From NCBI RefSeq assembly GCF_044704955.1, contig NC_091979.1:109926001-109990000 (forward strand): a stretch of 64,000 bases of DNA, read 5' to 3'. The translations under genes and the position numbers were made by a program. Numbering within the stretch: the stretch's first letter is position 1; every line of letters starts with the position of its first letter. Below, piece by piece: positions 17,472 through 57,262 of this stretch. The notes below the pieces were generated by a model. The model made no database searches. It was not told the DNA's origin and saw nothing but the letters and a program-made list of their open reading frames with translations. The DNA is from Pristiophorus japonicus (taxonomy: Eukaryota).

Positions 17472-20443
17472 ACAAAAAACAGGAAACTCTAGACCAGTTA
17501 GCCTAACATCTGTGGTTGGGAAAATGTTGGAGTCTATTATTAAAGAAGCAGTAACAGGACATTTGGAAAAGCATAATTCGGTCAGGCAGAGTCAGCATGG
17601 ATTTATGAAGGGGAAGTCATGTTTGACAAATTTGCTAGAATTCTTTGAGGATGTAATGAACAGGGTGGATAAAGGGGAACCAGTGGATGTGGTGTATTTG
17701 GACTTCCAGAAAGCATTTGACAAAGTGCCACATAAAAGGTTACTGCACAAGATAAAAGTTCATGGGGTTGGGGGTAATATATTAGCATGGATAGAGGATT
17801 AGCTAACTAACAGAGAACAGAGAGTTGAGATAAATGGCTCATTTTCGGGTTGGCAATCAGTAACTAGTGAGGTGCTGCAGGGATCAGTGCGAGGACCCCA
17901 ACTATTTACAATCTATATTAACGACTTGGAAGAAGGGACCGAGTGTAACGTAGCCAAGTTTGCTGACGATACAAAGATGGGAGGAAAAGCAATGTGTGAG
18001 GAGGACACAAAAAATCTGCAAAAGGACATAGACAGGCTAAGTGAGTGGGCAAAAATTTGGCAGATGGAGTATAATGTTGGAAAGTGTGAGGTCATGCACT
18101 TTGGCAGAAAAAATCAAAGAGCAAGTTATTATTTAAGTGGAGAAAAATTGCAAAGTGCTGCAGTACAGCAGGACCTGTTGATTCTTGTGCATGAAACACA
18201 AAAGGTTAATATGCAGGTGCAGCAGGTCATCAGGAAGCCCAATGGAATCTTGGCCTTTATTGCAAAGGAGATGGAGTATAAAAGCAGGGAAGTCTTGCTA
18301 CAGTTATACAGGGTATTGGTGAGGCCACACCTGCAATACTATGTACAGTTTTGGTTCACAGATTTACGAAAGAATATGCTTGCTTTGGAGGCAGATCAGA
18401 GAAGGTTCACTAGGTTGATTCTGGGGATGAGGGGGTTGACTTATGAGGAAAAGTTGAGGAAGTTGGGCCTCTACACATTGGAATTCAGAAGAATGAGAGA
18501 TGATCTTATTGAAACGTATAAGATTATGAGGGGGCTTGACAAGGTGGATGCAGAGAGGATGTTTCCACTGATAGGGGAGACTAGAACTCGGGGGTATAAT
18601 CTTAGAATAAGAACATAAGAACATAAGAAATAGGAACAGGAGTAGGCCATATGGCCCCTCAAGCCTGCTCAGCCATTCAATATCATGGCTGATCTGATCA
18701 TGGACTCAGCTCCACGTCTCCACCCGTTCCCCATGACCCTTATCATTTAAGAAACTGTCTATTTCTGTCTTAAATTTATTCAATGCCCCAGCTTCCACAG
18801 CTCGCTGAGGCAGCGAATTCCACAGATTTACAACCCTTTGGAGAGAAGAAATTCCTCCTCATCCTTGTTTTAAATGGACGGCCCCTTATTCTAAGATCAT
18901 GCCCTCTAGTTCTAGTCTCCCCTATCAGTGGAAAAATCCTTTCTGCATCCACCTTGTCAAGCCCGCTCATAATCTTATACGTTTCGATAAGATCACCTCT
19001 CATTCTTCTGAATTCCAATGAGTAGAGGCCCAACCTACTCAACCTTTCCTCATAAGTCAACCCCCTCATCCCCAGAATCAACCTAGTGAACCTTCTCTGA
19101 ACTGCCTCCAAAGCAAGTATATCCTTTCGTAAATATGGAAACCAAAACTGCACGCAGTATTCCAGGTGTGGCCTCACCAATACCTTGTATAGCTGTAGCA
19201 AGACTTCCCTGCCTTTATACTCCAACCCCTTTGCAATAAAGGCCAAGATACCATTGGCCTTCCTGATCACTTGCTGTACCTGCAAACTATCCTTTTGTGT
19301 TTCATGCACAAGTACCCCCAGGTCCCACTGTACTGCGGCATTTTGCAATCTTTCTCCATTTAAATAATAACTTGCTCTTTGATTTTTTCTGCCAAAATGC
19401 ATGATCTCACACTTTCCAACATTATACTCCATCTGCCAAATTTTTGCCCACTCACTTAAGCCTGTCTATGTCCTTTTGCAGATTTTTTGTGTCCTCCTCA
19501 CACATTGCTTTTCCTCCCATCTTTGTGTCATCGGCAAACTTGGCTACGTTACACTCAATCCCTTCTTCCAAGTCGTTAATATAGATTGTAAATAGTTGGG
19601 GTCCCAGCACTGATCCCTGCGGCACCCCACTAGTTACTCGTTGCCAACCAGAGAATGAACCATTTATCTCAACTCTCTGTTCTCTGTTAGTTAGCCAATC
19701 CTCTATCCATGCTAATATATTACCCCTAACCCCGTGAACTTTTATCTTGTGCAGTAACCGTTTATGTGGCACCTTGTGAAATGTCTTCTGGAAGTCCAAA
19801 TACACCACATCCACTGGTTCCCCTTTATCCACCCTGTTCATTACATCCTCAAAAAATTCCAGCAAATTTGTCAAACATGACTTCCCCTTCATAAATCCAT
19901 GCTGACTCTGCCTGACCGGATTTTGCTTTTCCAAATGTCCTGCTACTGCTTCTTTAATAATGGACTCCAACATTTTCCCAACCACAGATGTTGGGCTAAC
20001 TGGTCTATAGTTGCCTGCTTGTTGTTGCTTCCTTTTTTAATTCGGGATGTTACATTTGCAGTTTTCCAATCTGCTGGGACCTCCCCAGAATTCAGTGAAT
20101 TTTGGTAAATTACAACCAAAGCATCCACAATCCCTGCCGTTACTTCTCTTAAGACCCGAGGGGCTGTCCATTTAAAACTGAGATGAGGAGGAATTTCTTC
20201 TCTCAGAGGGTTGTAAATCAGTGTAATTCGCTGCCTCAGAGAGCTGTTGAAGCCAAGACATTGAATAAATTTAAGACCAGAGCTGGACAGCTTCTTAACC
20301 AATAAGGGTTTAAGGGGTTATGGGAAGCTGAATGGGAAGTGGACCTGAGTCCATGATCGGATCAGCCATGATTGTGTTAAATGGCGGAGCAGGGTCGAGG
20401 GGACATATGGCCTACTCCTGCTCCAATTTCTTATGTTCTTATG
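17472..20443 (+). mobile_element. CR1-clade LINE (RT and 3' tail), split by an antisense CR1 insertion; pieces 17472-18611 and 20158-20443
   Basis: QHGFMKGKSCLTNLL, YLDFQKAFDKVPH and KFADDTK motifs; tail TTCTTATGTTCTTATG. The sequence AGAATAAG|GGGC is continuous across the insertion. Confidence 0.92.
18612..20157 (-). mobile_element. CR1-clade LINE, 5'-truncated, same subfamily as its host
   Basis: ORFs 19452-19985 and 18776-19432 are CR1 RT (GVPQGSVLGP, FADD). 3' tail (AAGAACAT)n at the left end. Confidence 0.93.
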
Positions 20444-53656: not shown

Positions 53657-56306
53657 AATGTTGCAGGTCTGATTTCTGGTCTGTGCTCTTGTATTACACT
53701 GGGCAGTAGAGAGGGACACTACCAATGCCTTTAGTGTCTCTGATCGAGGGAGTGGAAAATAAATTAGCCGAGGTTCTTACTTCTGACCACTATCCAGTGA
53801 CCTCTGTTGAAAAGCATGTGAACAGCATTAGGCTCAGTCGTTGATGCTCTCCACCTTTAAATAGTGCATCAATTCTTAATGTCATGGCTCACATATTAAG
53901 ATTGGTCATATTGGAAAGGTACTGGGAAACTGGCAGCTGATGGAAACATTTGCCAGAAAAAGTCAGTACTTTTAGGGAAGGAGAAGAGAAAGAAAAAATG
54001 GGTTTAATTTTATACAGAGTTGAGCTTAACTGTACTCACCAAGTTATAATGACTCCAAATTACAAGTATGTCTAGCAATTAGATTTACTACTTCTGACCA
54101 ATCCAAAAATTCTACAGTATTCCTAACCTAAATAAGCTACTAAGTAACACACAAATCATTACCAATAGCTTGAATAAGGATAGTTTACCAACTAAATTAA
54201 ATAAAGTGCAAATTGCGTAGCCACTCTACCGATGAACACTTGGGAGTAGTGCTGATTCCCAAAGGTAAGGAAAGATGCCAAGCTCGAAGAGAGGAACAAT
54301 CTAATGCTACGTGACAGAGTGGAAACAATTGATAAAAACTTAAATCAGATGAATAAGGCAATGTGATGAATTTAACAGCACACTGAAATGAGCAGTGGTG
54401 GTGGTTATTGACAGGTACATTATTTAACTGAGGTTCATAAGGCCACCTGTGCATGTCATTATTTGAACCTCAAGAGAGAATTGAAAATTAAAAACAGCTG
54501 AGCTGAACAGACACCACATTTTAGTTTGTTTTAAATAAAGGCCTTTCTGCACTTGTTTAAATCTTACTGAAGCAGTGGATCAAAAAATTGAGAATGCTGT
54601 TTTATCTGGGAACAATCTTTTCATGTTGTTGTTTTTAATGGAGTGAAGCAGACTCAATATACAGCTAAATTTCGAGTACACACTGGTGGTGAGGAGTTTC
54701 AACCACTTTGAGCAGATATCAGAAATCAGGGACAATGCACCCACAATTTTTTGATATGTGAGCTCAGAAAATTACAGCAATGATGTATCAGTTAGAGCAC
54801 AATTATACTCCAATCTAAATTCCAAATCATGGCATTCTTTGAAAAGACAAGTACTTAGTCAGCAATGAAAACACAAGAACATAAGAAATAGGAGCAGGAG
54901 TAGACCATATCTCCCCTCAAGCCTGCTCCACCATACAATATCATGGCTGATCATCGACTTCAACTCCACTTTCCCGCCCGATCACCATATCCCTTGATTC
55001 CCCCAGGCTCCAAAAATCTATCTATCTTAGCCTTGAATATATTCAGAGACTCAGCAATCACAGCCCTCTGGGGCAAATAATTCCAAAGATTCACAACCTT
55101 CTGAGTGAAGAAATTCCTCCTCATCTCTGTCTTAAATGGCCTACCCCTTAAACTGAAACTGTGTCCCCTAGTTCTAGACACTCCAGCGAGGAGAAACAAC
55201 CTCTCGGCATCTACCCTGCCAATCCCCTTCAGAATCTTGTATATTCAATATCACTTCTCATTCTTCTAAACTCCAGAGAGTATAGGCCCATTCTACATAA
55301 TCTCTCATCATAATACGGCCCTCTCATCCCAGGAATGAATCTAGTGAACCTCCAATGCACCGCCTCCAAGGCAAGTATATCCTTCCTTAAATAAGGAGAA
55401 CAAAACTGCACAGTACTCCAGGTGTGGTCTCACCAAAGCCCTGTACAATTGCAACATGACTTCCTTACTCTTATACTCCAAACCCCTTGCAAGAAAGGAC
55501 AACATGCCATTTGCCTTCCTTATTGCTTGCTATAGTTGCATGCTAGCTTTCTGTGTTTCCTGCATAAATCTCTCTGAACACCAACATTTAAACATTTCTC
55601 ACCATTTAAAAAATATTCTATTTTTCTATTCTTCCGACCAAAGTGAATAACCTCACATTTCCCCACATTATACTCCATCTGCCACCTTACTGTCCCACTC
55701 ACTTAGCCTATCTATATCCCTTTGCAGATGCTTTGTGTTGACCTCACAGCTTACTGTTCCACCTAGCTTTGTTTCATCAGCAAACTTAGATATATTACAC
55801 TTGGTCTCTTCATCTAGGTAATTAATATAGATTGTAAATAGCTGAGGCTCCAGCACTGATCCTTGTGGCACCCCACTGGTTACAGCCTGTCAACCTGAAA
55901 AGGCCCCTGTATTGTATAGGGTTAATCACATAGGGTTAATTATGATATTCCGACATTTGCAGTGTGTTTTCTGCTTCATGCCTCGTGGAATGTTGTTGAT
56001 GCAGAGAGAGAGAGAGAGAGAGACCTTGATGCACACACCATCTTGTTTATGGAACGATCGGCGCCACGAGGTCTCATGCTTTGTGGAAGAACAGCTGGGG
56101 CCTTACAGATTAGGAGTTGGCCATAAGCCACATGCACCCATGTTTGTTCAATAGTATAAAGGAACGGAACTGTCCAGTAGCTCTTTGAACTTCACCTTGG
56201 ACCGTGATTCACGAGCGGTGACGGTACCCCCAAGGCTCCTGACCAGCCGTCGTTGTGGAGTTCCTGAAGGCTGTGAGTTTTGTTGCATCCTCAAAAATTC
56301 CAGTGT

Positions 56307-56378
56307 TCCCTGGTAGTCTAGTGGTTAGGATTTGGTGCTCTCACTGCCGTAACCTGGGTTTGATTCCTGGTCAGGGAA
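56307..56378 (+). pseudogene. tRNA-Glu(CTC) pseudogene
   Basis: 72 nt colinear with recalled vertebrate tRNA-Glu-CTC; 10 transitions, 8 at CpG. B box GTTCGA is changed to GTTTGA. No CCA; followed by AGCATTTT. Confidence 0.92.
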
Positions 56379-56386
56379 AGCATTTT

Positions 56387-56574
56387 CAATTCACTAAATA
56401 TATTCAAAAGGGAGTTCGATGAAGTCCTTACTACTAGGGGGATCAAGGGGTATGGCGAGAAAGCAGGAATGGGGTACTGAAGTTGCATGTTCAGCCATGA
56501 ACTCATTGAATGGCGGTGCAGGCTAGAAGGGCCGAATGGCCTGCTCCTGCACCTATTTTCTATGTTTCTATGTT
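56387..56574 (+). mobile_element. CR1 3' tail fused directly to the tRNA-Glu copy
   Basis: Nearly identical to the CR1 tail at 36460-36640; ends TTTCTATGTTTCTATGTT. Confidence 0.9.
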
Positions 56575-57262
56575 TATCATATTTCTCTTTTCTTCGTAAA
56601 CTGTATTATGTTTCTTTGCTCTCAGTAAAACGGTGTTTTATCTTTACTTCATTTATCTTGTCTCTTATTTAACATTCATCCAGATCCCGAACCTGGGTCT
56701 ATTATTATCAATCCAAAACAGACCCGTTTATCCCAATTCTCTGTTTTCTGTCTGTTAACCAATCCTCTATTCATGCTAACACATTACTCGAATCCCATTA
56801 TCCCTTATCTTGTGTAATAATCTTTTATATGGCACCTTATCGAATCCCTTTTGGAAATCCAAATATACTACATCCACTGGTTCCCCTTTATCTACTCTGC
56901 TAGTTACATCCTCAAAAACTCCAATAAATTTATCAAGCATGATTTCCCTTTCATAAAAGCATGTTAACTCTACCTAATCATGTTATGATTTTCTAAGTAC
57001 CCCGATACCAGTTCCTTAACAATGGATTCCAGCATTTTCCCAATGACTGATGTCAGGCTAACTGGTCTGTAGTTCCCTGTTTTCTCTCTCCCTCCTTTCT
57101 TGAATAGCGGTGTTACATTTGCTACTTTCCAATCCGCTGGGACTGTTCCGAATCTTGGGAATTTTGAAAGATCAAAACCAATGCATCCACTATCTCTGCA
57201 GCTATCTCTTTTAGAACCCTAGGCCATCAGGTCCAGGAGATTTGTCGGCTTTTAGTCCCGTT

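What the first reader, a model, noticed from the sequence alone, without database searches (positions are those of the whole stretch)
56304..56574. Pre-tRNA-Glu / CR1-tail chimeric retrocopy: a proto-SINE
Seen: a whole tRNA-Glu(CTC) starting at its mature 5' end, without CCA, with an 8-nt trailer ending in TTTT, fused directly to about 190 bp of CR1 3' tail. The unit sits inside an unrelated solo LTR with TGTT at both junctions, so it appears to have inserted as one piece rather than being a resident tRNA locus. Known: SINEs are Pol III heads joined to LINE tails (shark HE1/HER1), U6-L1 chimeras arise by template switching, and 5'-processed pre-tRNAs that still carry the 3' oligo-U trailer are normal intermediates. 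Inference: CR1 RT switched template onto such a pre-tRNA, creating SINE architecture in one step. The internal TTTT terminator and CpG-decayed B box would explain a failure to amplify.
Basis: partly seen in the sequence, partly recalled or inferred. Interest (0 to 1): 0.72.

Follow-up and report, generated by a model that had tools for sequence, protein, structure and literature searches.

The report
Raw tRNA captured by jumping gene
A single, likely dead insertion joins an unprocessed transfer-RNA transcript to the tail of a CR1 jumping gene, likely because the element's copying enzyme hopped from its own RNA onto the tRNA; similar one-off fusions, some stringing several small RNAs together, recur across this genome and resemble the predicted first step in the birth of short jumping elements (SINEs).

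Summary
The insert is 56290-56573. All 29 other LTR copies examined are empty there, and the site has no target duplication. The tRNA-Glu is not 5'-processed: it keeps a 5-nt leader and its trailer to the fourth T. These are the ends of a Pol III primary transcript from a decayed tRNA array (177 pattern matches, nearly all in arrays; nearest copy 1 of 72 different). Most of the decay is inherited. A 12-nt filler matches antisense CR1, from the element's own RNA or from flanking DNA. It is not a SINE family: one copy, internal T4, no middle domain. It is one of many one-off captures. I found 10 tRNA-CR1 chimeras and about 18 with a Tx1-like partner, many as 2-5-member tRNA/5S concatemers. Best mechanism: end-to-end template jumping during CR1 insertion (0.8). 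Closest known: U6/L1 and tRNA/L1 chimeras; the human tRNA cases are mostly antisense halves. The scan earlier noted CR1-tailed mRNA and snRNA chimeras on other DNA of this genome.

The parts
55908..56289 (+). Left part of the host solo LTR (retrovirus-like family; TG start)
   Evidence: 91-95% identity to 29 other copies, ending at 56289 in 28 of 29. The internal region of a two-LTR copy (L113) has RT, two RNase H-type domains and an integrase zinc finger.
56290..56301 (-). 12-nt templated filler, antisense CR1 ORF2 piece, with 4-nt overlap to the LTR end and 2-3-nt overlap to the tRNA leader (56301 may instead be leader position -6)
   Evidence: 18 of 19 match to young CR1 about 1050-1070 nt upstream of the tail junction; 0 of 1000 shuffles reach the score. 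An equal score is given by a local older CR1 at 56907-56923 (1 of 1000 shuffles).
56302..56306 (+). 5' leader of the pre-tRNA (inferred Pol III start at -5)
   Evidence: Identical to the array flank. The independent chimera L082 starts at the same base. A TATA-like element lies 31 nt upstream in the source genes.
56307..56378 (+). tRNA-Glu(CTC) pseudogene copy, no CCA, B box altered at one CpG
   Evidence: 1 of 72 different from array copy L105; 10 differences from intact gene L134, 8 of them at CpG.
56379..56386 (+). 3' trailer ending at T4 of the source gene's T5 terminator; predicted to stop Pol III before the CR1 tail
   Evidence: Source trailer; the same end point in L082.
56387..56573 (+). 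3' tail of a young CR1-type LINE, ending in an 8-nt tandem repeat with a 2-nt overlap into the target
   Evidence: the family's ORF2 carries RVT_1. The breakpoint is a modest truncation hot spot: 165 against 31 at one control site.
56574..56720 (+). Right part of the host solo LTR (CA end; flanking 5-mers match 4 of 5)
56907..56923 (+). Stretch of the older antisense CR1 that hosts the LTR; alternative DNA template for the filler
   Evidence: 16 of 17 match.

Best explanation
This is a single-copy, likely dead retro-insertion in which a CR1 reverse transcriptase likely jumped from its own RNA onto an unprocessed pre-tRNA-Glu. Steps: (1, shown) a young CR1 inserted bluntly into a solo LTR, with a 2-nt overlap at its 3' repeat. 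(2, inferred) After 187 nt, at a recurrent pause or RNA-end site, the enzyme jumped end-to-end onto the 3' oligo-U end of a Pol III primary transcript from the decayed tRNA array and copied it to its first base. (3, inferred) The upstream DNA end primed a 12-nt antisense CR1 patch, on the same CR1 RNA (twin-priming-like, about 55%) or on the neighbouring CR1 DNA (about 40%), and joined it to the cDNA end by 2-3 nt of microhomology. (4, inferred) The captured terminator, together with the altered B box, would keep the CR1 tail out of any Pol III transcript, so the unit could not amplify as a SINE. It is one of a genome-wide population of such one-off captures.
For: One event: 29 of 29 LTR copies are empty at this site and the two LTR parts are collinear across it. 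RNA template: both ends coincide with transcript ends (leader at -5/-6, T4), and an independent chimera has the same two ends (L082; 22-23-bp TSD with 1 mismatch). Other captured copies also keep only short leaders: 0-9 nt in 24 of the 26 dispersed Glu hits, three of which are resident genes; the exceptions are a DNA-type copy (178 nt) and a resident gene matching its own pair. One concatemer holds a 92-nt, apparently intron-containing tRNA-Arg (L150). Jumping rather than ligation: in concatemers the downstream member keeps its primary leader (L082, L119, L120, L139), which should carry a 5'-triphosphate (established knowledge), a poor RtcB substrate (PMC6789731, passages). Extra junction bases occur in L082 and L151. 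At the window's breakpoint several copies repeat the first 18 nt in tandem (L006, L027, L193, L195, L206, L217), as expected of an RT that stalls and re-primes there. Recurrence: 4 of 26 dispersed tRNA-Glu hits and 2 of 9 dispersed tRNA-Ile hits are CR1-tailed. Of 7 CR1 copies with four T before this exact base, 4 carry a tRNA or SINE head.
Against: No biochemistry or expression data. The window's own junction (T4 joined bluntly to CR1) looks exactly like RtcB-made U6/L1 junctions. A recurrent breakpoint could be an RNA cleavage site that yields a ligatable 5'-OH, and a broken RNA also weakens twin priming on the same molecule. The filler source cannot be decided (equal scores), and short 5' inversions are reported to be rare outside human L1 (PMC4245944, passages). 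Chimeras are a small minority of CR1 truncations: 0 of 60 junctions sampled without the T-run filter had a small-RNA head (positive control). The 4-of-7 against 0-of-0 contrast is not significant once the 165 against 31 truncation counts are allowed for. Many other captures have trailers of 35-120 nt, which need read-through transcription to be RNA-derived, and not all of these end in T-runs.
Confidence: 0.8

Rival explanations
1. RNA ligation first: a pre-tRNA bearing a cyclic-phosphate oligo-U end was ligated (RtcB-like) to a cleaved CR1 RNA fragment, and the chimeric RNA was then retrotransposed, as shown for U6/L1.
For: Blunt junction of T4 to LINE with no added base; recurrent breakpoint; demonstrated for U6/L1 (PMC6789731, passages).
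Against: Pre-tRNAs normally end in 3'-OH bound by La (recalled). Concatemers need ligation onto primary 5' ends, which RtcB handles poorly. Other chimeras have extra junction bases. If the filler came from upstream CR1 RNA, the template reached beyond the junction.
Confidence: 0.11
2. DNA patch: during repair of the CR1 5' junction, the tRNA segment was copied from array DNA (a polymerase-theta-like templated insertion), not from RNA.
For: The arrays are abundant (177 and 1176 matches). The nearest source has an altered B box and may be poorly transcribed. The filler may itself be DNA-templated. One dispersed copy (L125) is a DNA-type copy with a 178-nt flank.
Against: Both ends match transcript ends, and do so independently in L082. 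Short leaders recur across dispersed copies. All captures read in the same sense as their LINE partner and are serial.
Confidence: 0.05
3. A member of an amplified tRNA-Glu/CR1 SINE family, or two independent insertions (tRNA retrocopy and CR1) at the same spot.
For: Architecture of tRNA head plus LINE tail, as in HE1/HER1 (table in PMC3747384).
Against: The junction is unique. The 39 other best DNA hits of 40 scored (2360 candidates) match the tail only. Every other Glu chimera has a different junction. There is no separate target duplication for either part.
Confidence: 0.04

Closest known systems
U6/L1 chimeric pseudogenes (Doucet 2015, PMC4476161, passages read; Moldovan 2019, PMC6789731, passages read)
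   Same: Full-length Pol III RNA ending in about four T, joined in sense to a 5'-truncated LINE in one insertion.
   Different: Here the head is an unprocessed pre-tRNA and the LINE is CR1-type; there is no TSD. Doucet report only one unresolved U6-CR1 case (turkey) and suggest that switching may be restricted to U6/U6atac.
Human tRNA/LINE-1 chimeras (Law and Burns preprint, PMC11838501; abstract and sections 22, 30 read; supplements not seen)
   Same: tRNA fused 5' of a LINE fragment in a single event.
   Different: The 21 human loci are typically tRNA halves and mostly antisense. The chimeras here are whole or 5'-truncated sense transcripts that keep their trailer (often the leader too) and are often serial.
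PittSINE/TguSINE1 origin model (Suh 2017, PMC5729268, passages read) and shark HE1/HER1 (table in PMC3747384)
   Same: A tRNA head put on a CR1 tail by template switching is the step proposed there.
   Different: Those are amplified families whose founding event is inferred. This is an unamplified product with its source gene class identifiable, an internal terminator and no V-domain body.
[quoted passage not shown]
   Same: Serial jumps, and preferred switch sites in the LINE RNA.
   Different: One tripartite among 34 chimeras there. Here 2-5-member tRNA/5S concatemers make up a large share of the dispersed copies sampled.
Twin priming / 5' extra nucleotides (PMC2912911 and PMC4245944, passages read)
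   Same: Inverted LINE piece at the 5' junction, with microhomology on both sides.
   Different: Only 12 nt, in a CR1 insertion without TSD; a local DNA template fits equally well.

Membership tests
SINE (tRNA head, CR1 tail) | Multi-copy family descended from a master | tested here: not met
   1 junction in the genome; no second full unit among 40 scored hits.
SINE (tRNA head, CR1 tail) | tRNA-derived head | tested here: met
SINE (tRNA head, CR1 tail) | 3' tail shared with a partner LINE | tested here: met
   185-186 of 187 identity to young CR1 tails.
SINE (tRNA head, CR1 tail) | Pol III transcript that runs through head and tail (intact B box, no internal terminator) | tested here: not met
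   By sequence only: T4 at 56383-56386 and a B-box CpG change. Transcription itself was not measured.
V-SINE HE1 | Central V domain between head and tail | tested here: not met
   Only the 8-nt trailer separates tRNA and tail. No HE1 sequence was on hand for direct comparison.
Small-RNA/LINE chimeric retrocopy (U6/L1 type) | Small RNA 5' of a truncated LINE in the same orientation | tested here: met
Small-RNA/LINE chimeric retrocopy (U6/L1 type) | Single insertion (empty site and/or TSD) | tested here: met
   Empty site in 29 of 29 LTR copies; blunt, 0-bp TSD.
Small-RNA/LINE chimeric retrocopy (U6/L1 type) | Ends of the small-RNA part equal transcript ends | tested here: met
   Leader at -5/-6 and T4, repeated in L082. 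The start site is inferred, not mapped.
Small-RNA/LINE chimeric retrocopy (U6/L1 type) | Formation by RtcB ligation (as shown for human U6/L1) | not testable with these tools
   Indirect evidence from concatemers points away from it.
Twin-primed 5' inversion | Inverted segment templated by the same LINE RNA | tested here: inconclusive
   Score 32 against both the young CR1 and the local DNA. No clear short inversion among the other junctions scanned (24, 60); the strong antisense hits there fit older host copies.
CR1 clade (partner LINE) | RT phylogeny | not tested
   Pfam RVT_1 only. The names CR1 and Tx1-like rest on recalled ORF2 and tail features, and for Tx1-like on a zf-RVT hit below Pfam's cut-off; no tree was built.

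The most novel reading that the evidence does not exclude
In this shark-like genome, two LINE machines (CR1 and a site-specific Tx1-like element) routinely perform serial end-to-end jumps onto raw Pol III transcripts. They leave hundreds of one-off tRNA/5S/SINE concatemers fused to LINE tails: a standing pool of SINE precursors, and a fossil map of germline Pol III starts, stops and read-through that includes transcription of decayed tRNA pseudogene arrays. Most captures would sterilise themselves by carrying their own terminator, so only rare terminator-less ones (L136 is a candidate) could found a SINE.
Probability: 0.6. Interest if true: 0.68.

Novelty: new variant of a known kind. Interest (0 to 1): 0.52.

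Why it matters
The origin of tRNA-head/LINE-tail SINEs is usually inferred backwards from amplified families. Here the proposed first-step product is preserved, young (tail about 99% identical to relatives), with its source gene class and empty site known, and with many siblings. That makes three questions testable by counting: how often heads are captured, why nearly all fail (the captured terminator), and whether jumping or ligation joins them. It also suggests that a CR1-type LINE, held to be stringent, copies foreign RNA in vivo once primed. The single locus itself is likely dead DNA with no function.

Tried and rejected
Resident gene or segmental copy: rejected, because homology to the source flank stops at -6 and at T4. 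Amplified family: rejected. Post-insertion decay as the main source of tRNA damage: rejected for 9 of 10 sites; one change is private to the window copy. 'Chimera-specific hot spot' at the CR1 breakpoint: not supported. Folding the CR1 RNA around the breakpoint gave no obvious explanation. A search for frequent short inverted fillers at other CR1 junctions found none clear (one search was a script error). Sequencing runs: 20 of 22 listed rows hold a part, none half of the words, all as contigs, and RNA rows only at small shares. No reads were laid, so expression and presence in other individuals remain untested. Literature: 8 full-text searches found no report of whole pre-tRNA/CR1 chimeras or of tRNA concatemer retrocopies in sharks. 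Subscription papers and Repbase reports are not covered, Schmitz 2004 (pre-tRNA retropseudogenes) was not held, and the supplements of PMC11838501 were not seen. PMC5389967, PMC3956500, PMC6740152, PMC4494074 and PMC5786205 (passages) added only background. A word search of earlier scan notes for tRNA concatemers returned nothing.

Full report
Observation. ARAGORN and Rfam both call a tRNA-Glu(CTC) at 56307-56378. It has no CCA, is followed by 8 nt ending in four T, and then directly by 187 bp of a LINE 3' tail. The tail belongs to a young, abundant family: 2360 candidates, and the best 39 other hits match the tail only, at 96-99%; four copies compared base by base match 185-186 of 187. The family's ORF2 carries Pfam RVT_1; the name CR1 rests on recalled motifs. 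The tRNA/CR1 junction occurs once in the 5.9-Gb genome, even with the trailer left free.

Insertion site. The flanks are a solo LTR, 55908-56720. All 29 other copies fetched align up to 56289 (one to 56292) and resume at 56574 with no gap, and all 29 show the two sides joined directly. The insert is therefore 56290-56573 (284 bp), blunt, without duplication or deletion; two T of the target overlap the CR1 terminal repeat. A two-LTR copy of the host family encodes RT, two RNase H-type domains and an integrase zinc finger (L113), so the host is retrovirus-like. The LTR itself sits in an older antisense CR1.

Source of the tRNA. A 21-nt pattern of tRNA end plus trailer gives 177 matches. Of the 100 listed, all but three lie in clusters on C20, C30 and unplaced contigs. 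These are mixed arrays of tRNA genes, many decayed. Array copies share with the window the trailer (the source has five T, the window four) and the six bases upstream of the tRNA, and nothing beyond. A TATA-like element lies 31 nt before position -5. The nearest copy, L105, differs at 1 of 72 positions. Of the window's 10 differences from an intact gene, 8 are at CpG and 9 are shared with 20-40 of 40 array copies; the B-box change is shared by 25 of 40. The captured segment thus runs from about -5 to T4, the expected span of an unprocessed Pol III transcript, and its damage is mostly inherited. Because L098 differs at only 2 positions and has an intact B box, the actual donor may have had a working promoter.

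The filler. Twelve bases between LTR and leader, with their flanks, match the antisense strand of young CR1 ORF2 about 1050-1070 nt upstream of the tail junction (18 of 19, one A short in a run). None of 1000 shuffled fillers reached the score. The older CR1 at 56907-56923 scores the same (16 of 17; 1 of 1000 shuffles). The filler is templated, but twin priming on the element's RNA and copying from nearby DNA cannot be told apart. Inversions are reported to be largely confined to L1 in human cells (PMC4245944, passages), and scans of 24 and 60 other junctions showed no clear short inversion.

Not alone. One of the three dispersed matches, L082, has the same leader start and T4 end. It is preceded by a second, Val-like tRNA and followed by about 2 kb of another CR1 subfamily, all inside a 22-23-bp TSD. 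An exact 17-mer of the tRNA-Glu 3' end gave 1176 matches, 26 of them dispersed on C1-C19. By my reading these are: 3 resident genes (L127, L134, L135), 1 DNA-type copy (L125), 4 CR1-tailed chimeras (L122, L130, L136, L138), 15 tied to a Tx1-like element, and 3 unclear (L131, probably Tx1-like; L132; L140). Twelve of the 15 share one target motif in an older CR1 subfamily, several with 13-15-bp TSDs. L130 shows a 4-5-bp duplication with overlaps, the CR1-type length (PMC4245944). A second isotype, tRNA-Ile, gave 505 matches, 9 on C1-C21: 2 CR1 chimeras (L151, L154), 1 Tx1-like (L153), 1 concatemer without a recognised tail (L150), 2 genes and 3 array-type DNA copies. Rfam, run on 20 chosen loci, confirms tandem small RNAs: four in L150 (a fifth by eye), three each in L119, L120 and L121, two each in L082, L118, L133, L139 and L141. 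All junctions differ; none has amplified. In total I count 10 tRNA-CR1 chimeras (window, L082, L122, L130, L136, L138, L151, L154, L186, L188), one with two SINE heads (L187), and about 18 Tx1-like (the 15, L153, L144 and a second event in L111). Exact patterns miss mutated copies and only two isotypes were sampled, so hundreds genome-wide is an extrapolation. Empty sites were not checked for most of these.

The breakpoint. Seven CR1 copies have four T directly before the same CR1 base as in the window; four carry a tRNA or SINE head (window, L186, L187, L188) and three do not. The control site had none. Without the T filter the counts are 165 and 31, and 0 of the 30 + 30 fetched had a small-RNA head. 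So the site is a moderate truncation hot spot and chimeras are rare, at least 4 of 165. Tandem repeats of the first 18 nt at this site suggest that the enzyme stalls or runs off there.

Mechanism. The simplest account is end-to-end template jumping during target-primed reverse transcription (0.8). RtcB ligation, shown for U6/L1, needs a cyclic phosphate upstream and a 5'-OH downstream (PMC6789731, passages). It fits the window's blunt T4 junction, but not concatemers whose downstream members keep their primary leaders, nor junctions with extra bases (0.11). DNA patching does not explain transcript-like ends and constant orientation (0.05). The failure to amplify is inferred from the captured terminator; transcription was not measured.

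Comparison and novelty. It works like a U6/L1-type chimera and meets that class's structural features. It fails membership of SINEs on copy number and terminator. Human tRNA/L1 chimeras are 21 loci of mostly antisense halves (PMC11838501, sections 22 and 30). Doucet et al. record one unresolved U6-CR1 case and mention L1-made pre-tRNA retropseudogenes. Suh et al. propose this very step for PittSINE. Serial jumps are known but rare in Magnaporthe (abstract). Eight searches of the held library found no report of whole pre-tRNA/CR1 chimeras or tRNA concatemers in sharks; subscription papers and Repbase are outside it. Earlier scan notes on this genome describe CR1-tailed mRNA and mosaic snRNA retrocopies; I did not check them. 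Verdict: a real, likely dead, single insertion; a new variant of a known kind; worth more as an entry to the genome-wide pattern than in itself. Interest 0.52.

Noticed in passing
L111:6226-8497 (C8, about 41.385 Mb): Second double capture 1.3 kb from L082: tRNA-Asp plus tRNA-Trp, each with trailer, fused to a 90-bp Tx1-like tail on the minus strand, with a longer Tx1-like copy (14-bp TSD) nested at its 5' junction.
   Followed up: partly
L116, L117, L119-L121, L123, L124, L126, L128, L129, L137, L139, L144, L153: A Tx1-like element appears to target one fixed site inside an older CR1 subfamily, often depositing only a few bases of its own tail plus 1-3 small RNAs.
   Followed up: partly
L150:1444-1950 (C1, about 232.47 Mb): Five small RNAs in tandem (Ile, 5S, apparently intron-containing Arg, Val, iMet-like) with no recognised LINE tail.
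   Followed up: partly
L136 (C12, about 194.68 Mb): tRNA-Glu with leader, intact B box and only three T before a 470-bp CR1 tail: a better SINE-founder candidate than the window's unit.
   Followed up: no
C20 79.7-81.7 Mb, C30 and unplaced contigs; C27 2.69-2.81 and 10.04-10.14 Mb: Large tRNA arrays: a decayed mixed array with anticodon drift (Glu-type bodies reading TTT), and homogeneous 2.26-2.28-kb tandem units whose Glu genes have only three T after the gene, which matches the long read-through trailers in captured copies.
   Followed up: partly
window 17472-18611 and 18885-20025: A near-perfect (92-94%) inverted pair of 1.1-kb CR1 segments 273 nt apart; inverted CR1 arrangements also occur in L181, L182 and L215.
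   Followed up: no
L006, L027, L193, L195, L206, L217: Tandem duplication of the first 18 nt of truncated CR1 copies at the same breakpoint as in the window.
   Followed up: partly
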